A stretch of 64,000 nt of DNA from Candidatus Omnitrophota bacterium (GTDB lineage: Bacteria > Omnitrophota > Gorgyraeia > Zapsychrales > JANLHA01), in assembly GCA_029560465.1 (NCBI GenBank), contig JAKQKX010000016.1:141093-205092 (forward strand), in the 5' to 3' direction. The translations under genes were made by a program, and so were the position numbers. The notes beneath the pieces were generated by a model. The model ran no database searches and had not been told where the DNA came from. It worked only from the letters and a program-made list of their open reading frames with translations. This document shows positions 7,017 to 21,770 of this stretch, in pieces. The number at the start of each line of letters is the position of its first letter. Position 1 is the first letter of the stretch.

Positions 7017-7105
7017 AAGGACCCGCGGGTTTCAGCCTGCGGGCCCCCTTGAAATTGATAAGTTTATGATTGCTCTCCTAAATGTTACTAAGTATAATTA
7101 AAACC

Positions 7106-8101
7106 ATGAAAAGAACAGTCAGCTTTTTTATCGTGTGGGCGCTTATCCTTCCATTTTCCCTTGCCGCCGGTCAGGAAGAAACGGGGCCGGGGCTCTCCGA
7201 GGGAGGGCCCGCTGTTTCCCAGCCCAGCAAATGGCAGGAAACGGTCCGGTCTTTAAAAAAACAGACGGAGATGCTCCTGGAAAAGAACAAGACCCTTAAT
7301 GAGGAATATTCTTACCTGCAGGGCAGCATGACAGAGGTCCAGGAGCGCCGGAAGCAGCTTGAGAAAGAAATTGAGGAATACCGCCGGGAGAACCAGCAGT
7401 TGCTGGACCAGCAGAAAAAAAACGCCCTGCAGCAGCAGGACATGAAAAAGAAACGGCTTCAGACGCAAAAAGAACTGGAGCCCTTGCAGAAGCAGAACCG
7501 GGAGCTGGAAGACCGGTGGATGGCGGTCAAAAAAGAAACCGAGGATTGGCATGCCCGGATTTCAGACCTTGAGCGGGAAAAACGGGATTTGATCACGCAA
7601 TTAAAAAATTTGGAGTCTTCGCAGGACGATATGTCTGGCGCCCTTGACGAGGAAATCAAGAAGCTGGACTCGATCCTTCAGGAATATGACGAGGAAGGGG
7701 CCCTGGTGGATTTGGAAAAGGAGTCGTACGCGCGGGAAGAGGCGGAGATTTCCCGCTTGAACGCGCTGTTGGAAGAGGATATTGAAGGATTTCAGAAAGA
7801 GGAAGAGCGCGTGACCGCGCAGATCAACGAGGTGGAGAGGCAGAAAAGCGAACTTAAGAAAAAGGAAAAGCCGGAACGCCTTCCTCCGGAGCTGGTCAAA
7901 GAGAAGCAGCGGTTGGAACTGCAGGTGAAGCAACTGGAAGGGCAGTTGGGAACCATCAAGAAATCCGTGGAAGACACGTCCGCGGTCCTGGAGAAAAAAC
8001 GCGCCTTAATGGACGAGATCATGAGGATTGACACGGAAAACCGCGCGCTGCGGCAGCAGGTTTCTGAGCTCGTTGAGCAGTTGAAGGAAGCGAAGCCGTA
8101 A
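7106..8101 (+). CDS. Secreted coiled-coil protein (E/K/Q/L-rich), function unknown
   Basis: Signal peptide (MKRTVSFFIVWALILPFSLAAG). Almost the entire remainder is heptad-like charged repeats. Confidence 0.6.
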   Translation: MKRTVSFFIVWALILPFSLAAGQEETGPGLSEGGPAVSQPSKWQETVRSLKKQTEMLLEKNKTLNEEYSYLQGSMTEVQERRKQLEKEIEEYRRENQQLLDQQKKNALQQQDMKKKRLQTQKELEPLQKQNRELEDRWMAVKKETEDWHARISDLEREKRDLITQLKNLESSQDDMSGALDEEIKKLDSILQEYDEEGALVDLEKESYAREEAEISRLNALLEEDIEGFQKEEERVTAQINEVERQKSELKKKEKPERLPPELVKEKQRLELQVKQLEGQLGTIKKSVEDTSAVLEKKRALMDEIMRIDTENRALRQQVSELVEQLKEAKP

Positions 8102-8237
8102 GCCCCTCCTTTTTCCCCCGGGCGGGCACCCGCCTCAACGTCATCGTCACCCCTGAAATAATTTATTAGAAGAACCGGAAATAATGATATATAATTTAAC
8201 CCATATGTCTGGGAACAGATAACCAAAGGGGGCCCCT

Positions 8238-8723
8238 ATGGATGAGATACTGGAGATGTTAATGAAGGACGCCCGGTTGACGGCTGAAGAGATCGCCAAA
8301 ATGACGGGGCAGGACGCCGCGGCCGTGCGCAAGAAGATCAAGCAGTATGAAAAAAGCGGGGTGATCGTGCAGTATAAGACCGTGATCAACCAGGACATGG
8401 CGCACGATAACGGCTCTTTTGTCCGGGCGTTGATCGAGGTGAGCATCAACCCGCAGCGCGATGTCGGGTTTGACAACGTGGCGGAGCGCATTTATAGCTT
8501 CGCGGAAGTCAGCAGTTGTTACCTGGTTTCCGGGACGTATGACCTTTTGGTCGTGGTGGAAGGGGAGAATTTGCAGACGGTTTCGAACTTTATCGCGTCC
8601 AAGCTGTCGCCCCTGGCGAACGTGCGCAGCACGACGACGCATTTTCTGTTAAAAAAATACAAGGAAGATGGTTTTGTCCTGAAAAAAGGAAAGCCGCAGA
8701 AGCGGTTGAATATATCCTATTAA
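8238..8723 (+). CDS. Lrp/AsnC family transcriptional regulator
   Basis: N-terminal HTH (LTAEEIAKMTGQDAAAVRKKI) plus a C-terminal RAM domain. Classic pairing with the downstream aminotransferase. Confidence 0.85.
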   Translation: MDEILEMLMKDARLTAEEIAKMTGQDAAAVRKKIKQYEKSGVIVQYKTVINQDMAHDNGSFVRALIEVSINPQRDVGFDNVAERIYSFAEVSSCYLVSGTYDLLVVVEGENLQTVSNFIASKLSPLANVRSTTTHFLLKKYKEDGFVLKKGKPQKRLNISY

Positions 8724-8736
8724 CGGCAGGCCTTCT

Positions 8737-9930
8737 ATGGGTGGAAACATGGACGACAAGACGGTGATACATTCAAGGATATCAAAGACGGTGGAACGTT
8801 TGGCCCCGTCGGGGATCAGGGCTTTCTTTGACCTGGTTTTAAACATGAAAGACGTTATTTCCCTGGGGGTGGGCGAGCCGGACTTCGTGACCCCCTGGCT
8901 CATCCGCGAGAAGGCCATCTCGTCCCTCGAAGAGGGGTTCACCTCCTACACCTCCAACAAGGGGATGATCGAACTGCGCCGGGACATTGACCGGTTCCTG
9001 TCCGAGCGTTACGGCCTGCGGTATGACCCGGAGAACGAGATCCTCCTGACCGTGGGCGTTTCAGAGGGTGTGGACCTGGCCGTGCGCGCGATCCTCAACC
9101 CCGGAGAAAAGGTCCTGGTGCCGGAGCCGGCGTACGTGTCGTACGGCCCGGTCGTGGAGCTGGCCGGCGGAAAACCGGTTTACTTGAAGACGGATTTGAC
9201 GTCCGGGTTTAAGATCACGCCGCAGCTCATAGAAGAGGCCTGCGCGCGGGAAGGCGCAGTGAAGGCGATGGTCATCAATTATCCGGCGAACCCGACCGGG
9301 ACGTCGTATTCCCGCCGGGAACTGTCCGCCATGGCCGCGGTCATAAAAAAACACGATTTGATCGTCATCAGCGATGAGGTGTATGATGAATTGACGTACG
9401 ATTTCGACCACACGCCCTTCGCGTCCCTGCCCGGGATGCGGGACAGGGTCGTTTACTTGAACGGTTTTTCCAAAGCTTACGCCATGACCGGGTTCCGCCT
9501 GGGCTGGGCCAGCGGGCCCGCTGACGTGGTGGCGGCGATGACCAAGATCCACCAGTACACCATGCTGTGCGTGTCCATCACCGCGCAGATGGCGGCCCGC
9601 GAGGCGTTGCGGCACGGGAGGAAGTCCATGCTGGAAATGAAACGCGAGTATAACCGCCGCCGGCGTTTTATCGTCGACGCTTTGAATAAGATCGGATTGA
9701 ACTGCCATATGCCGCAGGGCGCGTTTTACGTGTTCCCTTCCATCGCCAAGACCGGGCAGTCGTCCTTGGATTTCGCCCAGGGGCTGTTAAAGAAAAAGAA
9801 AGTGGCGCTGGTCCCGGGCACGGCGTTCGGCCCTTCCTGTAACGGATTTGTCCGCATTTCTTACGCCTCCAGCTACGAGAATCTTAAAGAGGCCGTGGCC
9901 AGAATTGACGCGTACCTGAAAGAATTGTAA
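8737..9930 (+). CDS. PLP-dependent aminotransferase, class I (aspartate/aromatic aminotransferase family)
   Basis: Carries NPTG and SKAYAMTGFRLGWA (PLP lysine) motifs in about 395 aa. Confidence 0.85.
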   Translation: MGGNMDDKTVIHSRISKTVERLAPSGIRAFFDLVLNMKDVISLGVGEPDFVTPWLIREKAISSLEEGFTSYTSNKGMIELRRDIDRFLSERYGLRYDPENEILLTVGVSEGVDLAVRAILNPGEKVLVPEPAYVSYGPVVELAGGKPVYLKTDLTSGFKITPQLIEEACAREGAVKAMVINYPANPTGTSYSRRELSAMAAVIKKHDLIVISDEVYDELTYDFDHTPFASLPGMRDRVVYLNGFSKAYAMTGFRLGWASGPADVVAAMTKIHQYTMLCVSITAQMAAREALRHGRKSMLEMKREYNRRRRFIVDALNKIGLNCHMPQGAFYVFPSIAKTGQSSLDFAQGLLKKKKVALVPGTAFGPSCNGFVRISYASSYENLKEAVARIDAYLKEL

Positions 9931-9964
9931 GGCGTTTGTCCCGAAAAACAGAAAGCCATGAACC

Positions 9965-10357
9965 ATGACGCAACCATGCAATGATGATTGTGATTTTGAA
10001 ATCGCTTTTTACGAAGGCGTCCTCGAGAAAAGCCGGGATTTCGTGCAGGCCCTGATGGCCCTCGGCGACCTTTACACCAAAAAAGGCCATTATCAGAAAG
10101 GGCTCGACATCGACCAGCGGCTGGCTGAACTCCGCCCCCGTGACCCGCTGGTGCTTTACAACCTCGCGTGCAGTTATGCCCTGCTCGAGCGCGTGGACGA
10201 GGCCTTCCACGCCATGAAACGGGCGGTGGCCTGCGGGTATCATGATTTTGACTACATGCTGCAGGATCAGGACCTGGCCCGCCTCTGGGCGGATGAGCGT
10301 TTCCGGATTTTTATATCCAAGGTCCGGGGGCAACCGTTATCGCAGGATAAATCCTGA
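9965..10357 (+). CDS. Small TPR-repeat protein
   Basis: 130 aa with TPR-like helical repeats (ALGDLYTKKGHYQKGL...YNLACSYALL). Confidence 0.45.
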   Translation: MTQPCNDDCDFEIAFYEGVLEKSRDFVQALMALGDLYTKKGHYQKGLDIDQRLAELRPRDPLVLYNLACSYALLERVDEAFHAMKRAVACGYHDFDYMLQDQDLARLWADERFRIFISKVRGQPLSQDKS

Positions 10358-10358
10358 C

Positions 10359-11471
10359 ATGACGCGCACGGACGAACAATCCCGTCAATACCACCGGGTC
10401 AAAAACACGCTTTCTTATGTGACCGTGGCGATGGATGTCGCGCTTTTGACCCTCTGGATCGCCACCGGGGCTTCGGCAGGGCTCGCGGCAGCCGCGCGCG
10501 TGTTCTCCAAATCTGTCTGGCTGTCCACGGCCGTTTATCTGGCGATTTTTCAGGCGGTCATGACTGCGGTTCATTTTCCGTTCGATTTTTTTACCGGCTA
10601 CCAGTGGGAACACCGCTATGGCCTTTCCACCCAGACGTTCCCGCAGTGGCTTAAAGACGAGGCCAAGAAGGCTTTTTTCAGCTTTTTGCTGGTCCTTGTG
10701 TTTGTGGAGATGATTTATTTTTTCCTGCGGCGGTTCCCTTTCTGGTGGTGGGCCTGGGCCGCGGGGTTCTGGCTGCTGGTCACCGTCTTCCTCTCCCGCA
10801 TCATGCCGCAGGTGATCGTCCCGTTGTTTTATAAATATGTCCCGGTTGAGGACGCCGCGCTCAAGGAGCGCGTGCAGGCCCTGTTTAAGGCCTGCGCCGT
10901 CGGGTTTAGGGACGTATACGCGATCAAGATGTCGGAAAAAACCCGGAAGGCCAACGCGTTTATCTGCGGCTTGGGCCGCAGCCGCCGCGTGATCTTAAGC
11001 GACACCCTGCTGGCGAATTTTTCTTTGCCGCAGATCGAGGCGGTGGTGGCCCACGAGCTGGGGCACCATAAAGAAAAGCACATCCTAAAGATCATTGCCG
11101 TGAACACGGCCGGCGCTTTCCTGGCGTTTCTGTGCGTGCACGCCGCCCTGTCGTGGGGCGTGGCCCGTTTCGGGTTCCAGGGCCTGGATGATATCGGCGG
11201 GTTCCCGCTTTTGTTGCTGATGCTTCTGGTGTTCGGCCTGGCCGGCGCGCCGTTCAGTAATGCTTTAAGCCGTCATTTTGAATATGAGGCCGACCGGTTC
11301 AGCCTGGCGCTGACCCGGGATAAAGGCGCTTTTATTTCCATGCTTAAACAATTAGGCGACCTGAACCTGGCGGAAACCGACCCGCACTGGTTTAATGAAA
11401 TGATGTTCCATGACCATCCGCCTTTGTCGAAACGCATCCGGTTCGCGCAAAATTTTCAAGACCATTCATGA
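10359..11471 (+). CDS. M48 family zinc metallopeptidase (Ste24/HtpX-like), integral membrane
   Basis: Multiple N-terminal TM helices, an HELGHH zinc motif and a downstream E. Start placed 1 nt after the upstream stop. Its stop overlaps the next gene start. Confidence 0.8.
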   Translation: MTRTDEQSRQYHRVKNTLSYVTVAMDVALLTLWIATGASAGLAAAARVFSKSVWLSTAVYLAIFQAVMTAVHFPFDFFTGYQWEHRYGLSTQTFPQWLKDEAKKAFFSFLLVLVFVEMIYFFLRRFPFWWWAWAAGFWLLVTVFLSRIMPQVIVPLFYKYVPVEDAALKERVQALFKACAVGFRDVYAIKMSEKTRKANAFICGLGRSRRVILSDTLLANFSLPQIEAVVAHELGHHKEKHILKIIAVNTAGAFLAFLCVHAALSWGVARFGFQGLDDIGGFPLLLLMLLVFGLAGAPFSNALSRHFEYEADRFSLALTRDKGAFISMLKQLGDLNLAETDPHWFNEMMFHDHPPLSKRIRFAQNFQDHS

Positions 11472-14329
11472 CACAAACTGCCCGCATTTTCTCTGTGGTG
11501 ATCCTGGCCCTGACGGCCCTGCTGGGTCCGGCGGGCGTTTGCCCGGCGGCACCGGCCGCCACGTCCGCTGATACCGGGAAAGGCCGCCCGGTTTATAAAA
11601 TCCAGGCCCGCCTGGACGCGGACGCCAAAACCCTGCACGCGGCGCAAACCGTGACATGGGTGAACCCCGGCCCGTCCTCTGTTGACGAGATCGTCTTCCA
11701 TATTTATCCCAACCGGCGCTATTCAAAAAAAGAACAGGATTTCATGTTCCGTTTCGGCGGGTATTTCAAGGTGAACCCCTATCCGGACGGGTTCCCCGGC
11801 CGCGCCATGGACATCCTGGCCGTTGAAGAGGAGGGCCAGGCCCTGGCCTACGAAATATCCGGCGAGGACCGCACCCTTTTAAAGGTGCGCCTGCCCGCGC
11901 CTTTAGCCTCGGGGGAAACGGTTGAGGTGAATTTGCGCTACACGCTGTATCTCCCTCACGCGTACGGCCGTTACGGCTGGCATGACAATATCATCAAACT
12001 GTCCCGGTGGTACCCGGTGTTGGCTGTGTATCAGGAGGGGAAATGGAACACCGCGCCGTTTTTTCCGTTTCACCGGCCGTTTTTCAGCGAGAGCGCCCGG
12101 TACGAAGTTTCCCTGGAGGCGCCGCCGGAATACACGGTTATTCATACCGGCCAAAAGGCGGGGGAGGAAGCCTCTGGCGCGGATAAAAAATTATTTTTTA
12201 AAACCGGGCTGCCGGTGAGGGAATTCACCCTGGCCATGAGCCCGGATTTCCGGCTGGTGGAAGACACGGCCGGCGGGGTCACGATCAAATCGTATTATCT
12301 CCCCGGGCAGGAAGCGGCCGCCCGGATGGCCCTGGCCGACGCCCGGGACCTGGCGCGGTATTATACCGGGCTTTTCGGCCCGCTGCCTGACACGGAATTC
12401 AGCATCGCGCCGGTGCACCTGGGCTACGGCGGCGAGCAGATGGGCAACATGATTTTCTTGGACACGCGGGTGTACAGCCTGCCGCAATTTTTGCACCGGT
12501 ATTTCGATTTCCTGGTTTCGCATGAAACCGGGCACCTCTGGTTTTATAATCTCGTGGGCATGGACGAGTTCTCCCAGATGTGGCTGGAGGAAGGGGTGAA
12601 CTCCTACTTTGTGTCCGAATACCTCGCGTCCAAATACGGCGAGGACGCGCAGGTGCCGGATTACCCGTCGTGGATGATGGGGTTAGAAGGCATCCTGCCG
12701 CGGCTGACGTTTAAAAAGACACGGGATTTCCGCTACCGTATACTGGCCCAATCGGGGATCGACCATCCGGTGGTGGACAACCTCTCCGGGTTTCAGGAGC
12801 CGAGCAGTATTTTTTCTTTGACCTACGGCAAGGGCTCGCGCGTCGTGGCAATGCTGCGGTATTATCTGGGGGAAGAAAAGTTTGCCGGCGTGTTTAAGCG
12901 CGTTTTTCAGGAATACCGGTTCGTGAATTTAAAGATGGAGGATTTTATCAGGATCTGCGAGGAGGAGAGCGGGCAAAATTTACGCTGGTTCTTCGGCCAG
13001 TGGCTTTATAAAGGCGGCCGGATGGACGCGGCTGTGGTTAAGGCCGGCGGACGGACGGTCATTTTAAGAAATCTGGGGGAGGTCCAATCCCCGGTGCCGG
13101 TTGAGGTGACTCTGGCGGACGGGAGCCGGGAGACTTTTATGTGGGACATGGCGCAGGCGGAGGAAACCATCACCCTGGACGGCGCGGCCGCGGTGAAAAC
13201 AGTAGCCATTGACCCGGACGGGATTTTTCTGGACGTCGACCGGGTCAACAACCGTTGGCCCCGGAAATTCAATTTCAAGCCGGTGCCGTTTTACTGGGGG
13301 CTCTATGACATCCCGCTGTTTTTGCCCGACGACGGATACAATATCGTTGCGGGGCCGGACATGGCTGATTCGGGATTCGGGGTGAAGGCGTCCCTGCAGA
13401 AACCCTATGACTGGATCACCTACGCCGGCACGTCGTATGAGTTCGGCGAGCAGTTGCACCATTCCCGGTTCGGCGCCCAGCGCAAACACGTGTTTTCTTC
13501 GATGGCCTCCGCGGGGTTTGAGGTTGCCAACGTCCATGACCTTGACGGCGGGGACGAAGACCTGGCCAGCGGCAAGGTTTACCTCCGGCAGGAGCTCTGG
13601 CCGGCGGCGTACGGTCTGCTGGAAGACAACGACCACTGGACTTTATACCTGGTGCGCAACCAGCGGTTGAGTGGCCGGCACGACATGGTTGTTCCTATGG
13701 AAGAAGACCGGCAGCGGGATTATTCCCGGCGGGAGGAGGCGATCGTGGGCGCGGCGCTTCATATCAACCGGACCGGGCCTTATCCTGATCCCCGGCAGGG
13801 CTGGAAGCTGGACACGTCTTTGGAAAGCGCCGGGCATTTTCTGGGGGCGGGGCAGTATTTTTACCGTTCGGACGCGGCGTTCACCGTGATTCAGCCGATT
13901 ACGCCGCAGACCCGGGTGGCAGGGCGGATCAAAATTGGATTAGGGTATCCGGATAATAAAGAATTATTTTACCTGGGCGGCATGGACGGCTTGCGGGGGT
14001 ATAAACGGAAAGACGTCCGGGGCGCCAATATTCTGGTGGCGAACCTGGAATACCGGTTCCCACTTGTTGCGGACGCGCGTTTTTCCGTGGCCGACAACCT
14101 TCTGGGGGTCGAGTCGCTGGGCGGGGTGGTGTTTTTCGACGGCGGCAAGGCCTGGATGGATGATTTTTCGGAGCCCGGGTTTAAGAAAGACGCGGGCGCG
14201 GGCCTGCGGTTTAAAATCAATATCGGCTCGTTCCTGGAGCAGGCCCTGGTGCGTCTGGACGTGGCCCACGCCCTGGGCGAAGCGAAACAGGACACCCGGC
14301 TCTGGCTGGGGGTCAGCCACGCCTTCTAA
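11468..14329 (+). CDS. Fusion protein: M1-family (gluzincin) peptidase domain + C-terminal Omp85/BamA-type outer-membrane beta-barrel (surface antigen D15 domain)
   Basis: Signal peptide. HETGHLWFYNLVG-x18-WLEEGVNSYF is an HExxH+E M1 signature. The C-terminal 350 aa carry alternating beta-strand patterns (LGGMDGLRGY motif) and a terminal aromatic (...GVSHAF) typical of OM barrels. Confidence 0.7.
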   Translation: MTQTARIFSVVILALTALLGPAGVCPAAPAATSADTGKGRPVYKIQARLDADAKTLHAAQTVTWVNPGPSSVDEIVFHIYPNRRYSKKEQDFMFRFGGYFKVNPYPDGFPGRAMDILAVEEEGQALAYEISGEDRTLLKVRLPAPLASGETVEVNLRYTLYLPHAYGRYGWHDNIIKLSRWYPVLAVYQEGKWNTAPFFPFHRPFFSESARYEVSLEAPPEYTVIHTGQKAGEEASGADKKLFFKTGLPVREFTLAMSPDFRLVEDTAGGVTIKSYYLPGQEAAARMALADARDLARYYTGLFGPLPDTEFSIAPVHLGYGGEQMGNMIFLDTRVYSLPQFLHRYFDFLVSHETGHLWFYNLVGMDEFSQMWLEEGVNSYFVSEYLASKYGEDAQVPDYPSWMMGLEGILPRLTFKKTRDFRYRILAQSGIDHPVVDNLSGFQEPSSIFSLTYGKGSRVVAMLRYYLGEEKFAGVFKRVFQEYRFVNLKMEDFIRICEEESGQNLRWFFGQWLYKGGRMDAAVVKAGGRTVILRNLGEVQSPVPVEVTLADGSRETFMWDMAQAEETITLDGAAAVKTVAIDPDGIFLDVDRVNNRWPRKFNFKPVPFYWGLYDIPLFLPDDGYNIVAGPDMADSGFGVKASLQKPYDWITYAGTSYEFGEQLHHSRFGAQRKHVFSSMASAGFEVANVHDLDGGDEDLASGKVYLRQELWPAAYGLLEDNDHWTLYLVRNQRLSGRHDMVVPMEEDRQRDYSRREEAIVGAALHINRTGPYPDPRQGWKLDTSLESAGHFLGAGQYFYRSDAAFTVIQPITPQTRVAGRIKIGLGYPDNKELFYLGGMDGLRGYKRKDVRGANILVANLEYRFPLVADARFSVADNLLGVESLGGVVFFDGGKAWMDDFSEPGFKKDAGAGLRFKINIGSFLEQALVRLDVAHALGEAKQDTRLWLGVSHAF

Positions 14330-14334
14330 CCAAT

Positions 14335-14358
14335 CCGGGAGACAATTCCCGGCGCGTT
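14335..14358 (+). terminator. Weak hairpin (6-bp stem, CCGGGA/TCCCGG) followed by a short T run, after the M1-Omp85 gene
   Basis: ccgggagacaattcccgg then cgcgtttt. The U-tract is only 4 nt. Confidence 0.3.
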
Positions 14359-14637
14359 TTCGGTAATCCCTTCCTCATTTCCTTTATATATTTCATCCAA
14401 GGGGCTGGTGGCCGCGGCGGAGACATCCCTTCTTCACAGTTTTAAGATAAGGCAAGATATAGAGTTGCATCAAAATGTTATTGATGAATCATGGATATTT
14501 CCGTAATAAAAAAAGGACACATAAGGGAAACAGGGCTATAATAATAAAAAATCGGGGTAAAAACTGAATTATTCAAGAGGTAAGAAACAACGCCAACCCG
14601 CAAAGGATGGGGCGTTAAATAATTGTTAGGTCATAAA

Positions 14638-15417
14638 ATGGGATTTAATGAAAGAATAAAAAAAGAAGTTAGAAAACTGAGTCATTTTTCATGTTGCCTA
14701 TGTAAAAATATTGGAGCTGAAATTCATCATATTATTCCGCAAGAAGACGGTGGAGCAGATGATTTGGATAATGCGGCTCCTTTATGTCCTACTTGTCACG
14801 AATTGTATGGGGGCAATCCTAGAAAAAGAAAGATTGTAAGAGAAGCGCGGGACCAATGGTATAAAATATGCGAAAAGCGATTCGCTCCAAGTACAGATCG
14901 TTTAAGTGAGCTTGCTCAAAAGATTGATGACTTAGAAAAAAATCTGAAAAAAACTTCTCATGATATTATTAAAAAGTTAACGAAAGAAGAATTTGCTCCG
15001 TCAGGCAAATCTAAAATTAATAAACTGCCACTTAGCAAAGTTATAGAACGAATATTGTGTTTCAATCATATTTTAAAAACACCTAATTCAGAATCTATTA
15101 ACATAACTCATGAACTTTTATTTTGTACAGAAGGAGATCCTAATTCTAAGAATGATCAAGAATATAATCAAGTAAGACGCGAATTTATAGAAAAATTTGG
15201 GTCGCTTGTTGTTTATAATTTCTGCGCTTATCTCGTGTATCATGCAAAAATAGATTGGGTTAAGGGAGTTCCTGAGCCTGAATTGCAAAAATTATTATCA
15301 GCTAGTTTTGTATTTATGGTAATGCTATTGCACCATGAAGATCTCGATAATGATTTGAAACTCGAAATAGGTTTTACCAAAAAAAATGAGTTAATAGGAA
15401 GGATGAAAAAGACCTAA
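14638..15417 (+). CDS. HNH endonuclease-domain protein with an uncharacterised ~190-aa C-terminal region
   Basis: N-terminal CxxC...HHIIPQEDGGADDLDNAAPLCPTCH is a canonical HNH/ββα-Me motif. The C-terminal part has no recognisable motif. Gene GC is about 33% against roughly 60% for flanking DNA. Confidence 0.75.
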   Translation: MGFNERIKKEVRKLSHFSCCLCKNIGAEIHHIIPQEDGGADDLDNAAPLCPTCHELYGGNPRKRKIVREARDQWYKICEKRFAPSTDRLSELAQKIDDLEKNLKKTSHDIIKKLTKEEFAPSGKSKINKLPLSKVIERILCFNHILKTPNSESINITHELLFCTEGDPNSKNDQEYNQVRREFIEKFGSLVVYNFCAYLVYHAKIDWVKGVPEPELQKLLSASFVFMVMLLHHEDLDNDLKLEIGFTKKNELIGRMKKT

Positions 15418-15490
15418 CAAATCGCTTGAGCGGATGGCTGAAAAGCGCCCCCGCTTAGCTTTAGCGTTAGGTTAAATAAAAAGGATTATT

Positions 15491-16204
15491 ATGAAAGGTA
15501 TGGTTTATGAGTTTGCGTCAAAAGTTGATAAGTTAATATCAAGTTTAAGCAAAGAGGATATTTGTCTTCGCAATAAAAATACTAATGCAAAACGTTTAAT
15601 CGAAGAATTATTTCCTATAAGTCGTTTTGCATTAAAATTAGCGCATCCCGGATATGACGTACTTGTTGAGGCACATGAAAATAGTGGCCCCGTAGATGGA
15701 ACTATAATATTGGGCAAAGATAACGATCGGAAATATTTTGTCGAAGTTACCTATATATACTCTTATAAAGAATCAATGCGCAATGAATTGTTATTGAAAA
15801 CTGGAAGTGTCCCAGTTTCCGGGGATATTAATAGGGACAAAGCCTCTGGGGACGTTATTGCAGAGAGCACAATACAAACTATTGATGCTTTATTGAACCA
15901 ATTAGCTGCGAATATAATTGAGAGATATTCGGATAAATGCAAAAAGAATTACCCCAAAGGCACATTTTTAATAATTGCCTTTGATGATCCAACAATATTT
16001 GGGTTTGGTTTCTGGTCACAGTTGTTAGAAGAGATTGATAGACAAGGTGGCCTCCCTGACGGAGACTTCACGGAGGTTAATCTTTTGAATTGTGCAACCA
16101 ATGAGATGCAAAAAATCACATATACTGAGCAAGAACTAATTGTGATGAATTTGAGAAATGAATATAAAGCTAATAAAGTATTGCCAAAAAACAGCAATAC
16201 ATAA
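15491..16204 (+). CDS. Hypothetical protein (237 aa), partner of the HNH protein, no recognisable domain
   Basis: Long ORF with RBS (AAAGGA), the same low GC as the HNH gene, and a 73-nt gap. No P-loop, HTH or nuclease motif identified. Confidence 0.6.
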   Translation: MKGMVYEFASKVDKLISSLSKEDICLRNKNTNAKRLIEELFPISRFALKLAHPGYDVLVEAHENSGPVDGTIILGKDNDRKYFVEVTYIYSYKESMRNELLLKTGSVPVSGDINRDKASGDVIAESTIQTIDALLNQLAANIIERYSDKCKKNYPKGTFLIIAFDDPTIFGFGFWSQLLEEIDRQGGLPDGDFTEVNLLNCATNEMQKITYTEQELIVMNLRNEYKANKVLPKNSNT

Positions 16205-16275
16205 GTTGACGTAGCCATGCAATAAAATACTTATTTGCGGGCACATTTTTTTCATAGTAAAGTAATGAAATTATG

Positions 16276-16317
16276 GGGACACAATACTTATTTATTTTGA
16301 ATTAAGTATTGTGTCCC
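16276..16317. repeat. Perfect 15-bp-stem inverted repeat (GGGACACAATACTTA / TAAGTATTGTGTCCC) with a 12-nt loop
   Basis: Seen directly in sequence 72 nt downstream of the partner gene. It is either a transcript-end hairpin with no U-tract or a recombination site. Confidence 0.7.
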
Positions 16318-16342
16318 TGGAATTACACACTGGAATTACACA
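16318..16342. repeat. Tandem direct repeat, 2 copies of tggaattacaca(c)
   Basis: Immediately abuts the hairpin. 13-nt unit in 2 copies. Confidence 0.6.
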
Positions 16343-16559
16343 AAAGAAGAGCGGGTGATAATAGAAAACTGCCAAATGGGAGATCATAAATGAAAAAGAA
16401 GAAAATAGATGGCAGTGCAATACGTCTTCTTTCTTTGAAAGAAGACAAATTTAAGCAGACAATTGTTTATAGATCTTTTTTGATTCTCAGGCAGACGCTT
16501 GCGCCCGCCTTCCCAGCCGGTGATGCGCAGGCGTTAGCTGACGGATAAAAAAGGAAACA

Positions 16560-16587
16560 TTGACTAGGCGTACGTTTTGTGGTACGC
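16560..16587 (+). promoter_or_regulatory. Putative yefM-yoeB promoter with operator palindrome (TTGACT -35; GCGTAC-N8-GTACGC inverted repeat with GTAC core)
   Basis: TTGACT sits 17 nt upstream of a weak -10. The palindrome overlaps the spacer/-10 region, as in autoregulated YefM-YoeB operators, whose repeats have a TGTACA core. Confidence 0.45.
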
Positions 16588-16607
16588 TTTTGTTGGAGGT
16601 GACCTAT

Positions 16608-16850
16608 ATGACAACTTTAACAGTGAGTCAAGCAAGAGCAATTCTTTATAAACTTTTAGATAAAACCGCAGAATCTCATGAGCCTATTCAAATAACAGGA
16701 AAGAGAAATAATGCTGTGCTTGTTTCGGAGGAGGATTGGCGGTCAATTAAAGAAACCTTATATCTTCTTTCTATCCCAAAAATGCGCGATTCTATCCGTA
16801 AAGGATTAAAAACTTCTCTTGAGGATTGTTCGGAGGAGTTAAGCTGGTGA
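16608..16850 (+). CDS. yefM: Type II antitoxin, Phd/YefM family
   Basis: MTTLTVSQARAILYKLLDKTAESHEPIQITGKRNNAVLVSEEDWRSIKETLYL is a typical YefM N-terminal fold. GGAGGT RBS. Confidence 0.8.
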   Translation: MTTLTVSQARAILYKLLDKTAESHEPIQITGKRNNAVLVSEEDWRSIKETLYLLSIPKMRDSIRKGLKTSLEDCSEELSW

Positions 16851-17110
16851 GTTGGAAATTATATTATACAAAACAAGCACAAAAGGATGCCAAGAATATT
16901 ACAGCCGCAGGGTTACGTCTTAATGTGGAAGCGCTTTTAGAAATTTTAAAAAAGGACCCTTTTCAAAAATACCCACCTTATGAGAAACTCGTAGGCGATT
17001 TAGAAGGGGCCTACTCCAGAAGGATTAATATACAACATCGTCTTGTATATCAGGTCTTAAAGAAAGATAAGGCTGTTAAGGTTTTGAGAATGTGGACTTA
17101 TTATGAGTAA
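16847..17110 (+). CDS. yoeB: Type II toxin YoeB/Txe (RelE/ParE superfamily mRNA interferase)
   Basis: GTG start overlapping the yefM stop (GTGA). RRINIQHRLVYQV...VKVLRMWTYYE matches the YoeB catalytic C-terminus. Confidence 0.8.
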   Translation: MSWKLYYTKQAQKDAKNITAAGLRLNVEALLEILKKDPFQKYPPYEKLVGDLEGAYSRRINIQHRLVYQVLKKDKAVKVLRMWTYYE

Positions 17111-17137
17111 GATAATAAACAGATAAAAAAGCAATAC

Positions 17138-17173
17138 AGCGGTTCCCGCCAAAGCGGAACCGCTGATTTTTTT
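17138..17173 (+). terminator. Rho-independent terminator after yoeB
   Basis: AGCGGTTCC...GGAACCGCT stem (9-11 bp) followed by GATTTTTTT. Confidence 0.75.
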
Positions 17174-17186
17174 GTTAGATTAAAAC

Positions 17187-17741
17187 ATGATGAATATACA
17201 AAAATATGTTTTTGTGCTTCTGGCGGGGTGTTCCCTGGTTCTTGTGAACCCTTTTTTTGTTTATGCTGACCGATGCGATGATATGATGGACAGGGCGAGG
17301 AAGGCCTTTGACTCGGGCGCCCGCGCTACAGAGCAGGGGAAGAATTCCGAGGCCATCAGGTTTTTTCAGGAAGCGGAAAAATATTATGAAAATGCCTCGC
17401 AAATGAAAAACTGCCAATGCCCCAAGATTGCGAGTGTTTCTAAGTATAATATTCAAATGTGCAGGAATAATATAGAAAGCAATAAGCGTGCTTTGGCGGG
17501 ACAGAAGCAACATGCTGATGATTTGGCAACCTATAACGAGGCGATGGGGAACTATAGGCAGGCAGATTCCTGCGCGAACAAGCAGCAGTGGGACAATGCT
17601 GTTTATTTTTTTGAAAAGGCGGCGGCGATTTGGGAGGGCATGTCTTCCCCGTCGACTGAAAACGGCAGAAGAGCTGTAGAGTCGGCCAGAATGGCGCGTA
17701 ACAAGGCGGCCCTGGCCCGTAAACAGATGGGACGGCAATAA
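17187..17741 (+). CDS. Putative lipoprotein (lipobox LLAGC), cysteine-containing, function unknown
   Basis: Signal peptide with L-A-G-C lipobox. 184 aa. Confidence 0.55.
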   Translation: MMNIQKYVFVLLAGCSLVLVNPFFVYADRCDDMMDRARKAFDSGARATEQGKNSEAIRFFQEAEKYYENASQMKNCQCPKIASVSKYNIQMCRNNIESNKRALAGQKQHADDLATYNEAMGNYRQADSCANKQQWDNAVYFFEKAAAIWEGMSSPSTENGRRAVESARMARNKAALARKQMGRQ

Positions 17742-17850
17742 TAATACCCTTCAGCGGCCGCTGTTCGCCCCTTGCGGCAGCCTCGCGACACCGCTGAGTT
17801 CCTTGCGTTAGAAGGCCGCTCCGCACGGGAGAAACAGGAGAGATAGTCTG

Positions 17851-18540
17851 ATGAACACATCCGTTCAGGTTTTGATCGTTGGCTCTGGAAAACTTGCCGC
17901 AGAACTCATTGAAAACCTCAAGAGCCGGAGTATCGCTTCTGTGCTTCCCTGGAACAGAAAAGGTGAAAGGCTTGAATGTAAAAGCGTCGTCGTCCATGCC
18001 GGGTCAGGGCGTGAACTGCCGGGCGTGGTGTCGTTCTGCTCAGCCAATAATTCGGTGCTGATAGAGCTGTCGACAGGCGGAAACCTGGCTGAGGAAAGCC
18101 ATCCGTTCCCGGTTATAATTTGCCCGAACATAAATATCCTGATGTTGAAATTCATGGCCATGCTTCAAAGCCAGGGCTATCTGTTCCGGGAATACCAGAA
18201 AACGATTCTTGAGTCACATCAGGCGGCAAAGACGTCCGCGCCGGGCACGGCCATTAACATTGCTCGTTCCCTTGGCGTGGACCCCGGGCAAATTGTTTCG
18301 GTGCGAAACCCGGTGGTGCAGGAAAATGAGCTTGGAATCCCTTCAGAATTTCTCCCGCGGCATGCCTACCACCGGGTCATCATTGGCGACGAGAATGTCA
18401 GGATAACCTTTGAGACAAAGGTGCTTGGACAGTCGCCCTATGCTTTGGGGCTGGCAAAGGTCATTGAAGCCATCTGCGGAAGAGACCTGGAGCCGAAGCC
18501 CTATGATATCCTTACCTTGATCCAAAGCGGGTGGCTATGA
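17851..18540 (+). CDS. DapB-family (4-hydroxy-tetrahydrodipicolinate reductase-like) protein, short divergent form
   Basis: N-terminal GxGxxA Rossmann motif (VLIVGSGKLAAEL). ESHQAAKTSAPGTA matches the DapB E-x-H-H-x-x-K-x-DAPSGTA region with one His replaced. Confidence 0.5.
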   Translation: MNTSVQVLIVGSGKLAAELIENLKSRSIASVLPWNRKGERLECKSVVVHAGSGRELPGVVSFCSANNSVLIELSTGGNLAEESHPFPVIICPNINILMLKFMAMLQSQGYLFREYQKTILESHQAAKTSAPGTAINIARSLGVDPGQIVSVRNPVVQENELGIPSEFLPRHAYHRVIIGDENVRITFETKVLGQSPYALGLAKVIEAICGRDLEPKPYDILTLIQSGWL

Positions 18541-18802
18541 AAAGCCGGAGGGGTGCATTCGTAACCGGCGCTGGAACCGGAAACGGCGAGTCAATCGCGG
18601 AACGTCTTTTTGCTGGCGGCGCTTCGGTTGCGCTGGTCAGCCGTCGCCTTGATCTAGAGAAAGCTGTCTGCCAAAGAATTGATCCAGAGGGCTGCGTGCC
18701 TTAGCCCTTGAGGCTATTGAAACAGACCAGGCCGATGTTTTTTCCTCTATGAAGGATGATATCCCTGCCATGCTTGCCAACGGCTATGGTGCTATCGTGT
18801 AA
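18536..18802 (+). pseudogene. Short-chain dehydrogenase/reductase (SDR) pseudogene, 5' part (frameshifted, internally deleted), disrupted by an IS element
   Basis: MKSRRGAFVTGAGTGNGESIA is an SDR TGxxxGxG N-terminus. A premature stop and a frame change follow. The second frame reads ...MLANGYGAIV up to the IS boundary. Confidence 0.65.
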
Positions 18803-18826
18803 TGCACCCCATTAAGCAAGGGATTT

Positions 18827-19609
18827 TTAAGTTAGAATCGGCTCTTTGTTAAGCTGACATTTTTCATAAAATTGCGCTGGCGTCAGGTTGTCCAGAGACT
18901 GATGGGGGAAATCGGTGTTGTAGTCGTGGATCCATTGAGCCAGACGGACTTCGAATTCAAAAGGGTTTTCCCAGTCATAGGGCCAAACAATGTCTTCTTT
19001 GATGGTTCGCATGACACGTTCGGTATCTGAGTTGCCTTTGGGGTTTGACCAGGTTGTAAAGATTTGTTTTAAGCCCAGGATCGAGCAGTTCATCATGAAC
19101 CGCTGGGATGTGGGCTGGCAGCCGTTATCTGATATAAGAAACAATTTTTGTTCTTTGAGTGCTTCACGGATTCCGTCAGGGAATCGGTCATTGACCGCCA
19201 TCTGTAAGGCGTCGAGCCAGTGATCGGTTTTGGATTGAAGGCTCAAAGCATGGCCGACGATCTCCTTGGAATGCCAGTCAAGGACAACGCAGAGGTACAG
19301 CCAGCCCCAGCCATAGAGTTTGATTTTGGTCATGTCGATGCCCCAGAACTGATTGGGGCGGGAAGCGACGGGCTTGGGACGCATTGGTCCGCGTTTGGCC
19401 TTGAGGCGAGCCTGCGGTGTCACGATCAGGTTTTGCTCTTTCATAAGACGATAGATGCGTTTTTTATTAACCGCCATACCTTGACGGTATTTGAGATACG
19501 ACCAGATTCTGCGGTAGCCCCATAAGGGATGGTCGGTCTTGATCTGTTTGATCTGATCCAGTAGTTTTTGATTGCGCCGGGTTACGGATTGGGATTTTGC
19601 TCTTTTCAT
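18827..19609 (-). CDS. IS3-family transposase OrfB (rve/DDE integrase core)
   Basis: DDE residues in WGIDMTKI, SDNGCQPTS and ERVMRTIKE contexts. 260 aa. Confidence 0.8.
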   Translation of the reverse strand: MKRAKSQSVTRRNQKLLDQIKQIKTDHPLWGYRRIWSYLKYRQGMAVNKKRIYRLMKEQNLIVTPQARLKAKRGPMRPKPVASRPNQFWGIDMTKIKLYGWGWLYLCVVLDWHSKEIVGHALSLQSKTDHWLDALQMAVNDRFPDGIREALKEQKLFLISDNGCQPTSQRFMMNCSILGLKQIFTTWSNPKGNSDTERVMRTIKEDIVWPYDWENPFEFEVRLAQWIHDYNTDFPHQSLDNLTPAQFYEKCQLNKEPILT

Positions 19610-19881: not shown

Positions 19882-19948
19882 TGAATAAAGCTCCTTTTAG
19901 TTGGAGCCTTATTCTAACTTAAAACCGCGATTCTGTTAATGGGGTGCA

Positions 19949-21707: not shown

Positions 21708-21770
21708 AGGTTTTTCGTAACATGCCGGCATTGCCCTAACGGAGCTCATTTAACGATCGCTTTAGCCGGG

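What the first reader, a model, noticed from the sequence alone, without database searches (positions are those of the whole stretch)
10359..14329. Translationally coupled M48 (Ste24/HtpX-like) inner-membrane peptidase and an unusual M1-aminopeptidase-domain/Omp85 beta-barrel fusion protein
The 953-aa protein combines a signal peptide, a gluzincin HExxH-x18-E M1 catalytic core, and a C-terminal Omp85/TpsB-like barrel ending in an aromatic residue. An outer-membrane-embedded M1 peptidase is an architecture I do not recognise as described. Its start overlaps the stop of an M48 CAAX-type protease, suggesting a two-component envelope proteolysis, secretion or processing system.
Basis: partly seen in the sequence, partly recalled or inferred. 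Interest (0 to 1): 0.6.

Follow-up and report, generated by a model that had tools for sequence, protein, structure and literature searches.

The report
M1 peptidase fused to Omp85 barrel
A candidate-phylum (Omnitrophota) bacterium encodes an intact zinc peptidase fused to an outer-membrane barrel of the BamA type, a real, widespread and apparently unstudied protein design, but the neighbouring membrane protease is not a dedicated partner of it.

Summary
Window 10359-11471 encodes a 370-aa Ste24-type M48 membrane peptidase. Window 11468-14329 encodes a 953-aa protein, and the two genes overlap by 4 nt (ATGA).

The 953-aa protein has:
- a signal peptide;
- a three-domain M1 module with intact HExxH-x18-E and the catalytic Tyr;
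- a conserved 42-residue linker, with no POTRA domain;
- a 16-strand Omp85 barrel with the RGY and FxDxG motifs and a terminal Phe.

The fusion is not a one-off. More than 120 full-length Omnitrophota homologues exist, in 72 GTDB species genomes. A wider set of about 900-aa M1 proteins has diverged barrels that are homologous by hhalign (99.3 %). These occur in Latescibacterota, KSB1, WOR-3, Zixibacteria, TA06 and Gemmatimonadota. They carry only automatic names, and I found no paper describing them.

The "two-component M48 system" reading fails:
- M48 is near the fusion in only 22 of 53 informative Omnitrophota loci.
- Each gene occurs without the other at the same syntenic site.
- The fusion's start overlaps a small TPR gene in the same way when M48 is absent.
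- Four loci from other phyla have no M48 nearby.

Most likely this is a periplasm-facing peptidase anchored in the outer membrane. It is a new enzyme-bearing Omp85 subfamily analogous to PlpD. The orientation and the substrate are inferred, not shown.

The parts
9965..10357 (+). Small TPR protein (130 aa) with no signal peptide. It is the most constant upstream neighbour of the fusion gene in Omnitrophota.
   Evidence: Pfam TPR_2/TPR_17. NCBIfam TPR end-of-group domain, E 3e-15. No hydrophobic N-terminal segment. A TPR gene lies upstream in 46 of 53 informative loci.
10359..11471 (+). Ste24-type M48 (M48A) integral-membrane zinc peptidase, 370 aa.
   Evidence: Pfam Peptidase_M48_N plus Peptidase_M48. 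ZMPSTE24 (6bh8) E 6e-31 and yeast Ste24p E 7e-27. Six to seven hydrophobic segments. A 100 % identical protein in an Omnitrophota MAG is named 'M48 family metallopeptidase'.
11052..11066 (+). HELGH zinc-binding motif of the M48 peptidase (residues 232-236).
   Evidence: Motif search in the translation. It aligns with the ZMPSTE24 HELGH.
11468..11471 (+). ATGA overlap: the fusion-gene start codon overlaps the M48 stop codon.
   Evidence: Sequence read directly. The same -4 overlap occurs in L001, L002 and L064. It also occurs with the TPR gene in loci that lack M48.
11468..14329 (+). Complete M1-Omp85 fusion gene (953 aa plus stop).
   Evidence: ORF. Pfam Peptidase_M1 plus Omp85. More than 120 full-length homologues carry both Pfam domains. 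AF2 model pLDDT 86.9, pTM 0.86.
11468..11557 (+). Sec-type signal peptide (about residues 1-30; the cleavage site is not determined).
   Evidence: Hydrophobic core IFSVVILALTAL at residues 7-18. An N-terminal hydrophobic segment followed by small residues is seen across the family. The model shows helix 4-18 and then a low-confidence stretch.
11591..12298 (+). M1 N-terminal beta domain (residues 42-277).
   Evidence: All-beta in the model. It falls within the ~580-column Foldseek alignments to IRAP/ERAP1/ERAP2/F3, E about 1e-26, and within phmmer alignments starting at query residue ~122-204.
12311..13003 (+). M1 thermolysin-like catalytic domain (residues 282-512).
   Evidence: Pfam PF01433 at residues 348-512. 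PDB hits include glutamyl aminopeptidase at 2e-14. Helical in the model.
12428..12439 (+). GGEQ (residues 321-324), at the position of the M1 exopeptidase motif GxMEN.
   Evidence: G322, E323 and Q324 are invariant. G[GS]EQ is present in 117 of 120 Omnitrophota homologues. HMMER aligns E323 with the GAMEN Glu. MAFFT aligns Q324 with the Glu of G[GA]MEY in the wider family.
12521..12592 (+). HETGH-x18-E zinc-binding and catalytic motif (H352, E353, H356, E375).
   Evidence: Invariant in 42 of 42 aligned homologues. HE..H-x18-E is present in 120 of 120. It aligns with HELVHQW...WLNEG of aminopeptidase A.
12824..12826 (+). Tyr453, at the position of the M1 catalytic (transition-state) tyrosine.
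   Evidence: Invariant. It aligns with the Y of 'isYsKGs' in glutamyl aminopeptidase.
13028..13210 (+). Small beta-sandwich (residues 521-581), equivalent to M1 domain III. It is not a POTRA domain.
   Evidence: Six strands and no helices. No POTRA Pfam hit at E <= 0.1. The M1 structural alignments extend to ~580 columns.
13211..13336 (+). Conserved linker (residues 582-623) with the motif D-x5-LDxDRxNNxWPR...Y..LYD.P.F.P.D.Y.
   Evidence: D582, L588, D589, D591, N595, P598 and Y609 are invariant. The motif is also kept in the diverged relatives from other phyla. Block pLDDT is about 89-94 in the full model against 37-74 in the barrel-only model.
13337..14326 (+). 16-stranded Omp85-type beta-barrel (residues 624-953).
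13991..14002 (+). LRGY (residues 842-845), the Omp85 loop-6 signature, in the 26-residue loop between strands 11 and 12.
   Evidence: R843 and G844 are invariant. [LIM]RG[YF] is present in 119 of 120 homologues. It aligns with the RGY/RGF of BamA and TamA.
14132..14146 (+). FFDGG (residues 889-893), the FxDxG motif of strand 13 that locks loop 6 in Omp85 proteins.
   Evidence: F889 and G893 are invariant. It aligns with FaDaG of F. nucleatum BamA. The motif is described in PMC11358297.
14303..14326 (+). C-terminal beta-signal WLGVSHAF, ending in Phe.
   Evidence: F953 is nearly invariant and W946 is conserved. 119 of 120 homologues end in an aromatic residue.

Best explanation
The 953-aa protein belongs to an uncharacterised subfamily of the Omp85 superfamily. 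In it, a catalytically intact M1 zinc peptidase module takes the place of the POTRA domains.

Shown:
- It has a Sec signal peptide.
- It has M1 domains I-III with every zinc-binding and catalytic residue conserved.
- It lacks the helical C-terminal domain of classical M1 aminopeptidases.
- A 42-residue linker, conserved across phyla, leads into a 16-strand barrel. The barrel has the loop-6 RGY and strand-13 FxDxG lock motifs and a C-terminal aromatic beta-signal.
- The fusion is conserved in Omnitrophota. With more diverged barrels, it also occurs in several FCB-group candidate phyla and in Gemmatimonadota.

Inferred:
- The barrel has the canonical Omp85 register, with the RGY loop between strands 11 and 12 and the long loops at odd positions. 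Strand 1 therefore starts at the periplasmic face.
- The M1 module is consequently held rigidly under the barrel in the periplasm, as was shown experimentally for the patatin domain of PlpD.
- There it most likely works as an outer-membrane-tethered exopeptidase. It would trim peptides or unfolded chain ends that reach the periplasmic face of the outer membrane.

The upstream M48 gene is an ordinary Ste24-type inner-membrane protease. It lies in the same compact, conserved housekeeping gene block (PabB, coiled-coil protein, AsnC regulator, aminotransferase, TPR, [M48], [fusion], YjbQ, PfkB, Era). The 4-nt overlap reflects tight operon packing. It does not indicate a dedicated two-protein machine.
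For: Architecture:
- Pfam M1 plus Omp85.
- Invariant H352/E353/H356/E375/Y453, R843/G844, F889/G893 and F953.
- AF2 pLDDT 86.9, pTM 0.86, 16 strands, no beta-alpha-alpha-beta-beta unit.
- Foldseek aligns ~580 columns with IRAP/ERAP/F3 at E about 1e-26.

Family breadth:
- More than 120 full-length homologues and 72 GTDB species loci.
- 63 of the 150 best 50 %-identity representatives are at least 850 aa.
- Their Pfam-silent C-termini match the barrel at hhalign probability 99.3 %, E 8e-21, including the linker, RG[YF] and FxDxG motifs.
- Source names include Latescibacterota, KSB1, WOR-3, Zixibacteria, TA06 and Gemmatimonadota.

Periplasmic orientation:
- Connection lengths read from the DSSP are 2, 4, 7, 27, 9, 26, 9, 7 at odd positions and 3, 4, 13, 9, 5, 11, 4 at even positions. 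The RGY loop lies between strands 11 and 12, as in BamA and TamA.
- The linker is confident only when the M1 module is present.
- The PlpD enzyme domain is periplasmic (PMC11116518).

M48 is not a dedicated partner.
Against: - I could not read the model coordinates or the PAE. The side of the membrane on which the M1 module sits is therefore inferred from topology rules and analogy, not seen.
- The 42-residue linker is long enough in principle to cross a barrel lumen.
- No substrate, activity or localisation data exist for any member.
- The GxMEN exopeptidase motif is altered to GGEQM in the Omnitrophota clade, so aminopeptidase specificity is uncertain.
- M48 adjacency is scattered over the whole fusion-protein tree. 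It may be the ancestral state, so a loose functional link cannot be excluded.
- I did not check whether these genomes also have a canonical BamA.
Confidence: 0.6

Rival explanations
1. Surface display or self-export. The Omp85 barrel exports its own N-terminal M1 module to the cell surface, as a type V-like autotransporter. The cell would then digest external proteins or peptides, which would fit the proposed predatory or host-dependent lifestyle of Omnitrophota.
For: - The order of passenger then Omp85 barrel resembles the original type Vd model for PlpD (PMC4104836).
- The linker of 42 residues could span a lumen.
- Some loci from other phyla sit next to other secreted-type peptidases: M6 with CHU_C in WOR-3, and M10 and S9-like in Gemmatimonadota.
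Against: - There is no POTRA domain.
- The loop-6 RGY and FxDxG lock motifs of closed BamA/TamA-type barrels are invariant.
- The module is about 580 residues of folded zinc enzyme.
- The prototype PlpD has since been shown to keep its enzyme domain in the periplasm (PMC11116518).
- The linker is confidently modelled only when packed against the M1 module.
Confidence: 0.15
2. Assembly or quality-control machine. The barrel keeps a BamA/TamA-like insertase or gate function, and the fused M1 module degrades stalled or misfolded outer-membrane proteins. This would be a single-chain analogue of BamA working with a BepA-type protease. The inner-membrane M48 and the TPR protein might contribute.
For: - The barrel is closest to the BamA, TamA and Sam50 insertases.
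- It carries their lock motifs.
- The TPR, M48 and fusion genes are tightly packed in 15 loci, and this arrangement is scattered across the tree.
- From my own knowledge: E. coli BepA is an M48 protease with a TPR domain that acts at BAM.
Against: - POTRA domains, which insertases use to handle substrates and partners, are absent.
- The M48 here is a Ste24-type polytopic membrane protein.
- The TPR protein has no signal peptide, so neither resembles periplasmic BepA.
- M1 enzymes are typically exopeptidases and are poorly suited to degrading folded or stalled barrels.
- The fusion is missing from its syntenic site in some related genomes.
- Neighbours differ in other phyla.
Confidence: 0.12
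3. M48 and the M1-Omp85 protein form a dedicated, translationally coupled two-component system for envelope proteolysis, secretion or processing. M48 might, for example, process the fusion protein or keep the Sec translocon clear during its export.
For: - The ATGA overlap occurs in the window and its closest relatives.
- M48 lies within 5 kb upstream in 22 of 53 informative loci, in deep and shallow branches alike.
Against: - 24 of 53 loci have TPR followed by the fusion without M48, and 7 have neither upstream gene.
- Two loci have TPR and M48 without the fusion at the same site.
- The same kind of overlap is seen between the TPR gene and the fusion.
- In 7 loci a PilZ-domain gene and other genes are inserted between the two.
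- This M48 subfamily is common in phyla for which no fusion was seen.
- Four loci from other phyla have no M48.
- The surrounding block consists of unrelated housekeeping genes.
Confidence: 0.08

Closest known systems
PlpD / FplA (patatin-like Omp85 proteins, formerly 'type Vd')
   Same: An N-terminal hydrolytic enzyme domain is fused to a C-terminal 16-strand BamA/TamA-like Omp85 barrel in one polypeptide. The Omp85 scaffold is reused for something other than protein insertion. In PlpD the enzyme domain is held in the periplasm (PMC11116518).
   Different: The enzyme here is an M1 zinc peptidase of about 540 residues in three domains, not a patatin lipase. There is no POTRA domain between enzyme and barrel, only a family-specific 42-residue linker. 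The taxa are also different: Omnitrophota and FCB candidate phyla.
'Metallo' and WD40-like Omp85 subfamilies of Heinz & Lithgow 2014 (PMC4104836)
   Same: These are Omp85 barrels with non-POTRA N-terminal domains. They are uncharacterised and were found by domain-architecture census.
   Different: The 'Metallo' subfamily carries PF00149 (a metallophosphoesterase fold), not a peptidase. PF01433 occurs 0 times in that paper's domain-profile table. The M1 fusion was therefore not part of the ten-subfamily scheme.
noNterm Omp85 proteins (e.g. Leptospira LIC12252/12254/12258; PMC11358297)
   Same: POTRA-less Omp85 barrels with conserved loop-6 (L/M)RG(W/Y) and FxDxG motifs, and of unknown function.
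   Different: Those proteins have no periplasmic domain at all. Here a large enzyme module precedes the barrel.
BamA / TamA / Sam50
   Different: There are no POTRA domains. Scores against the NCBIfam BamA and TamA models (37 and 30 bits) are far below their cut-offs (297 and 625). An enzyme is fused to the barrel.
Short M1 peptidases without the helical C-terminal domain (e.g. D. radiodurans 'zinc metalloprotease', PDB 6a8z/6iff, 474 aa)
   Same: The M1 N-terminal and catalytic domains are present without an ERAP1_C-like cap. Many standalone proteins of about 480-620 aa match positions 7-510 of the fusion profile at E about 1e-75 to 1e-90. The PDB hit 6a8z has E 7e-6.
   Different: Those proteins are soluble and end after the catalytic or sandwich domain. 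The fusion continues into a membrane barrel.
Ste24 / ZMPSTE24 (M48A), for the upstream gene
   Same: Both Pfam domains are present, together with the HExxH motif and a polytopic membrane topology (E 6e-31).
   Different: It is about 100 residues shorter at the N-terminus than the eukaryotic enzymes. Bacteria have no CAAX substrates, and its own substrate is unknown.

Membership tests
Peptidase family M1 (gluzincins) | HExxH-x18-E zinc-binding and catalytic motif | tested here: met
   HETGH at residues 352-356 and E375. Invariant in 42 of 42 aligned homologues and present in 120 of 120. Pfam PF01433 E 7e-22.
Peptidase family M1 (gluzincins) | N-terminal beta domain plus thermolysin-like catalytic domain fold | tested here: met
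   Foldseek against PDB aligns ~580 columns with IRAP, ERAP1/2 and tricorn factor F3 at E about 1e-26, probability 1.00.
Peptidase family M1 (gluzincins) | Catalytic tyrosine downstream of the zinc site | tested here: met
   Y453 is invariant and aligns with the Tyr of the Y-x-K-G motif.
Peptidase family M1 (gluzincins) | GxMEN exopeptidase motif (its Glu anchors the substrate N-terminus) | tested here: inconclusive
   The Omnitrophota clade has an invariant GGEQM. HMMER puts E323 on the motif Glu, while MAFFT puts Q324 there. Relatives in other phyla keep G[GA]MEY (80 of 109).
Peptidase family M1 (gluzincins) | Helical C-terminal domain (ERAP1_C type) of classical four-domain aminopeptidases | tested here: not met
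   After the beta-sandwich the chain continues as the linker and barrel. This domain is not universal in M1; the 474-aa chains 6a8z/6iff are too short to carry it.
Omp85 superfamily | [quoted passage not shown] | tested here: met
Omp85 superfamily | Loop-6 (V/L/M)RG(F/Y/W) motif and strand-13 FxDxG lock | tested here: met
   LRGY at residues 842-845 and FFDGG at 889-893. R843, G844, F889 and G893 are invariant. They align with the same motifs in F. nucleatum BamA and P. aeruginosa TamA.
Omp85 superfamily | [quoted passage not shown] | tested here: not met
   No PF07244 or PF08479 hit at E <= 0.1. There is no beta-alpha-alpha-beta-beta unit in the model, and residues 521-581 are all-beta. The published noNterm, Metallo and WD40-like subfamilies also lack POTRA.
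Omp85 superfamily | C-terminal aromatic beta-signal | tested here: met
   The protein ends ...WLGVSHAF. 119 of 120 homologues end in F, Y or W.
BamA or TamA orthologue | Score above the curated equivalog cut-off; five (BamA) or three (TamA) POTRA domains | tested here: not met
   TIGR03303 scores 36.6 bits against a cut-off of 297. The TamA model scores 29.6 against 625. There is no POTRA domain.
Type Vd autotransporter (PlpD-like) | Passenger, single POTRA and Omp85 barrel, with a patatin passenger | tested here: not met
   There is no POTRA and no patatin domain.
Type Vd autotransporter (PlpD-like) | Passenger exported to the cell surface | not testable with these tools
   This needs localisation experiments. 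It is also disputed for PlpD itself (PMC11116518).
Peptidase family M48A (Ste24), for the upstream gene | Peptidase_M48_N membrane helices, M48 catalytic domain and HExxH motif | tested here: met
   PF16491 E 5e-24, PF01435 E 9e-32. HELGH at residue 232 and 6-7 hydrophobic segments. ZMPSTE24 E 6e-31.
Dedicated M48 + M1-Omp85 two-gene system | Conserved co-occurrence and adjacency of the two genes across the family | tested here: not met
   M48 is upstream in 22 of 53 Omnitrophota loci and in 0 of 4 loci from other phyla. Each gene is found without the other at the same syntenic site.
BepA-like periplasmic M48-TPR protease | Signal peptide, soluble M48 domain and TPR domain in one periplasmic protein | tested here: not met
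   The M48 is polytopic and Ste24-type. The TPR is a separate 130-aa protein without a signal peptide.

The most novel reading that the evidence does not exclude
The POTRA-less Omp85 barrel and the M1 peptidase may work as one machine of a kind not yet described. One possibility is that the barrel exports the 580-residue enzyme to the cell surface, which would be a new class of type V-like secretion. Another is that the barrel acts as a gate that passes peptides or unfolded chains directly to the active site fixed beneath it. In that case the barrel would replace the helical cap domain of classical M1 enzymes. Such a machine would be shared by Omnitrophota and a broad set of FCB-group candidate phyla and Gemmatimonadota.
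Probability: 0.2. Interest if true: 0.8.

Novelty: new variant of a known kind. Interest (0 to 1): 0.55.

Why it matters
Omp85 proteins were long thought to do only two things: insert or translocate other proteins. PlpD showed that the scaffold can carry a periplasmic enzyme. The family described here would be a second, much larger and phylogenetically broader example, with a protease instead of a lipase and no POTRA domain at all.

It occurs in phyla known almost only from metagenomes: Omnitrophota, Latescibacterota, KSB1, WOR-3, Zixibacteria, TA06 and Gemmatimonadota. Outer-membrane biology in these phyla is essentially unexplored.

The family gives a concrete, testable case for how an outer-membrane barrel and a soluble enzyme fold are combined. 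It may bear on peptide nutrition or envelope quality control in these organisms.

The work also corrects a tempting inference. The overlapping M48 gene is a syntenic neighbour, not a partner.

Tried and rejected
- **AFDB fold search.** A Foldseek search of the AlphaFold database (afdb50), meant to find the architecture elsewhere, could not run because the library was unavailable. I replaced it with the 1.84-billion-representative HMMER search.
- **Barrel-only structure prediction.** I repeated it with sub-sequences of proteins from the homology search.
- **Model coordinates.** These are not exposed to scripts. I could not read the side of the barrel on which the M1 module sits, the active-site geometry or the PAE.
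- **Promoter and terminator scan of 6900-14800.** It gave nothing above background that would define the operon.
- **Second Omp85 barrel.** An HMM scan of 1.07 Mb of fetched loci plus the window found only the fusion genes. This does not test for BamA genome-wide, because all the loci surround the same gene.
- **Pfam and NCBIfam on the diverged relatives.** Neither recognised the barrels of most ~900-aa relatives from other phyla. hhalign against the Omnitrophota barrel alignment settled the homology.
- **Literature searches.** Searches for the fusion, and for BamA or outer-membrane proteins in Omnitrophota, found nothing relevant. The library lacks most subscription journals.
- **POTRA-like linker.** Rejected. 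The segment is an all-beta M1 domain III followed by a family-specific linker.

Full report

Yes. Window 10359-11471 (+) encodes a 370-aa protein and window 11468-14329 (+) a 953-aa protein. The ATG of the second gene overlaps the TGA of the first (ATGA).

Pfam assigns Peptidase_M48_N (E 5e-24) and Peptidase_M48 (E 9e-32) to the first protein. It assigns Peptidase_M1 (residues 348-512, E 7e-22) and Omp85 (residues 748-922, E 1e-16) to the second. All four are above the curated cut-offs. This is far beyond chance.

**2. Anatomy of the 953-aa protein**

I aligned 42 homologues of 47-88 % identity. The invariant residues are H352, E353, H356 and E375 (HExxH-x18-E), Y453, G322-E323-Q324, R843-G844, F889 and G893. 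F953 is nearly invariant. In 120 database homologues the zinc motif is present 120 times, [LIM]RG[YF] 119 times and a terminal aromatic residue 119 times.

The AlphaFold2 model built on this alignment is confident (pLDDT 86.9, pTM 0.86). It shows, in order:
- a signal-peptide helix (residues 4-18);
- an all-beta domain (42-277);
- a helical catalytic domain (282-512);
- a six-strand beta-sandwich (521-581);
- a 42-residue linker (582-623);
- 16 long strands (624-949).

Foldseek aligns about 580 columns of the model with IRAP, ERAP1/2 and tricorn factor F3, at E about 1e-26. The N-terminal part is therefore M1 domains I-III. The helical fourth domain of classical M1 aminopeptidases is missing, and the barrel stands in its place.

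There is no POTRA domain. Pfam gives no hit, and the model contains no beta-alpha-alpha-beta-beta unit. Its "POTRA-like linker" is not there, however.

**3. The exopeptidase motif**

Classical M1 enzymes carry GxMEN, whose Glu holds the substrate's free N-terminus. The Omnitrophota proteins have an invariant GGEQM instead. HMMER places E323 on the motif Glu. MAFFT, in an alignment with relatives from other phyla, places Q324 there. Those relatives keep G[GA]MEY (80 of 109). Whether the window protein is a strict aminopeptidase is therefore open.

**4. How widespread is the fusion?**

A search of 5.8 billion proteins returned more than 120 full-length hits. All carry both Pfam domains, and all named ones come from Omnitrophota. 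They are annotated automatically as "M1 family aminopeptidase" or "BamA/TamA family outer membrane protein". A scan of one genome per GTDB species found 72 loci, all in Omnitrophota MAGs. Some of these are labelled "uncultured Planctomycetales" in the records.

An exhaustive HMMER search of 1.84 billion cluster representatives gave more. After the Omnitrophota-type proteins, the list continues with many proteins of about 880-1050 aa. Their M1 module matches the profile up to position ~590-600, which includes the start of the linker. Of the best 150 representatives, 63 are at least 850 aa, and 42 of those end in an aromatic residue.

Pfam and NCBIfam see only the M1 domain in most of these proteins. 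An alignment of 31 of their C-terminal regions nevertheless matches the Omnitrophota barrel alignment at hhalign probability 99.3 % (E 8e-21, 287 columns). The match is collinear and includes the DRxNN linker motif, the RG[YF] loop and FxDxG (motifs shown).

Names attached to these proteins and their cluster mates point to Latescibacterota, candidate divisions KSB1, WOR-3, Zixibacteria and TA06, and Gemmatimonadota. The M1-linker-Omp85 design is thus a broad family rather than a peculiarity of this genome. A few members have lost the zinc motif, for example P0368.

**5. The M48 gene and the "two-component" idea**

The 370-aa protein is a Ste24-type (M48A) polytopic membrane peptidase. It matches ZMPSTE24 at E 6e-31, carries HELGH at residue 232, and has six to seven hydrophobic segments. 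Homologues of the same length at 38-42 % identity are named from Chloroflexi, Acidobacteria, Anaerolineae and Planctomycetota. That is about as similar as most of the Omnitrophota orthologues, which are 41-49 % identical. The subfamily is therefore not tied to the fusion.

In Omnitrophota the fusion gene lies in a conserved block. The order is PabB, a coiled-coil protein, an AsnC-family regulator, an aminotransferase, a small TPR protein, [M48], [fusion], YjbQ, a PfkB kinase and Era.

The 53 loci with enough upstream sequence divide as follows:

| Upstream arrangement | Loci |
|---|---|
| TPR, M48, fusion directly adjacent | 15 |
| TPR and M48 lying 2-4.6 kb upstream, with a PilZ-domain gene (and sometimes endonuclease III or others) in between | 7 |
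| TPR then fusion, no M48 | 24 |
| Neither upstream gene | 7 |

The M48-adjacent state is scattered over the neighbour-joining tree of the fusion protein. It may be ancestral and repeatedly lost.

Two contigs found through M48 homologues carry the same block with TPR and M48 but without the fusion. In one (L074), M48 is followed directly by YjbQ.

The start of the fusion gene overlaps or abuts whichever gene precedes it. With M48 the spacing ranges from -17 to +22 nt, apart from one +68 case. With TPR it is -4, -1, +1 or +2 nt in many loci. The ATGA overlap is thus a property of a compact operon. It is not evidence of a specific M48 partnership.

Four loci from Gemmatimonadota, KSB1, WOR-3 and an unnamed 2.4-Mb contig have no M48 within 6 kb. 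They share no neighbour with each other either.

I conclude that M48 is a syntenic neighbour. A loose functional link is not excluded, but an obligate system is not supported.

**6. How it most likely works**

The following are shown:
- a signal peptide;
- an intact catalytic centre;
- a BamA/TamA-like barrel with lock motifs and a beta-signal;
- a linker conserved across phyla;
- a high pTM, which suggests a fixed arrangement of the two halves.

The rest is inferred.

The connection lengths between strands in the model are 2, 4, 7, 27, 9, 26, 9, 7 at odd positions and 3, 4, 13, 9, 5, 11, 4 at even positions (read). The RGY motif sits in the 26-residue connection between strands 11 and 12. This is the canonical Omp85 register, with long extracellular loops 4 and 6 and short periplasmic turns. 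Strand 1 therefore starts at the periplasmic face, and the M1 module, which is joined to it, should be periplasmic.

Two further points support this:
- The linker is confidently modelled only when the M1 module is present (block pLDDT about 89-94 against 37-74). That fits packing against the enzyme rather than lying inside the lumen.
- PlpD is the only studied enzyme-Omp85 fusion, and its enzyme domain has been shown to stay in the periplasm (PMC11116518).

I therefore favour an outer-membrane-tethered, periplasm-facing zinc exopeptidase, with confidence about 0.6 for the whole statement. What it cuts is unknown. Peptide trimming for nutrition and removal of unfolded chain ends at the outer membrane are both possible.

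The rivals are surface display (0.15), a BamA-like assembly or quality-control machine (0.12) and the dedicated M48 system (0.08).

**7. Comparison with what is known**

The protein meets the defining features of family M1, except for the uncertain GxMEN motif and the non-universal C-terminal domain. It meets those of the Omp85 superfamily, except for the POTRA domain, which several published subfamilies also lack.

It is not a BamA or TamA orthologue: it scores 37 and 30 bits against cut-offs of 297 and 625. It is not a PlpD-type protein either.

The 2014 census that defined ten Omp85/TpsB subfamilies lists a "Metallo" group, but that group carries PF00149. PF01433 does not occur in its domain table. 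Later papers repeat the same list. I found no paper that mentions an M1-Omp85 fusion. The searchable library omits most subscription journals, so this is absence of evidence only.

**8. Verdict**

This is a real and well-conserved family that is known only by automatic annotation. It is best classed as a new variant of a known kind, namely an enzyme-bearing, POTRA-less Omp85 subfamily.

It would interest people who work on outer-membrane biogenesis. It would become much more interesting if the barrel and enzyme prove to act together, or if these genomes lack a canonical BamA, which I could not test.

The M48 part of the finding is ordinary.

Noticed in passing
window 14400-30900: A stretch of about 16 kb, mostly low in GC (39-44 % in several 2-kb windows against 55-59 % upstream), separates the fusion gene from PfkB (31029-31940) and Era (32243-33208). 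In other Omnitrophota these genes follow within 1-3 kb. The stretch carries an HNH endonuclease (14623-15417), a Phd/YefM-YoeB toxin-antitoxin pair (16560-17110), an rve-family transposase (18827-19609, minus strand), a chemoreceptor (22699-24606, minus strand), an ABC substrate-binding protein and an EAL response regulator. It looks like an accessory or mobile insertion into the conserved block.
   Followed up: partly
window 9965-10357 and loci L001-L072: The 130-aa TPR protein has no signal peptide and only generic 'TPR end-of-group' similarity. It is a steadier neighbour of the fusion gene than M48 is, and M48 is always found directly after it. Its start or stop often overlaps its neighbours. 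Its role is unknown.
   Followed up: partly
protein P0028: One database entry of 1088 aa joins the TPR protein in frame to the fusion protein, which leaves the signal peptide internal. This may be a gene-calling or frameshift artefact, given the -1/-4 overlaps seen elsewhere, or it may be a real fusion.
   Followed up: no
loci L024, L028, L035, L038, L047, L061, L062, L053; also L073: In several Omnitrophota a gene for a protein of about 660 aa with an N-terminal PilZ (c-di-GMP-binding) domain is inserted between M48 and the fusion gene. It is sometimes accompanied by an endonuclease III-like gene. L023 and L073 have short PilZ proteins at the same place.
   Followed up: partly
window 4752-7016: This 754-aa ORF appears to join a chorismate-binding (PabB-like) enzyme to a class IV aminotransferase-like part. 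In L073 and L074 these are two separate adjacent genes (468/464 aa and 271/275 aa). In several loci tblastn hits cover only one half.
   Followed up: no
protein P0368: At least one ~900-aa relative from outside Omnitrophota has lost the zinc motif (NEICL in place of HExxH, and GKG in place of DEG). Some family members may therefore be inactive pseudo-peptidases that keep the barrel.
   Followed up: no
locus L075 3193-8931 (Gemmatimonadota chromosome CP070758.1): Here the fusion gene is preceded by a standalone 591-aa M1 peptidase and a 296-aa protein with no domain hit. M10-like and S9-like hydrolase genes lie nearby, forming a peptidase-rich neighbourhood unlike the Omnitrophota context.
   Followed up: no
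locus L076 1061-3298 (KSB1): A second, different Omp85 protein (DUF5686 plus Omp85, 745 aa) lies 2.7 kb upstream of the M1-barrel gene.
   Followed up: no
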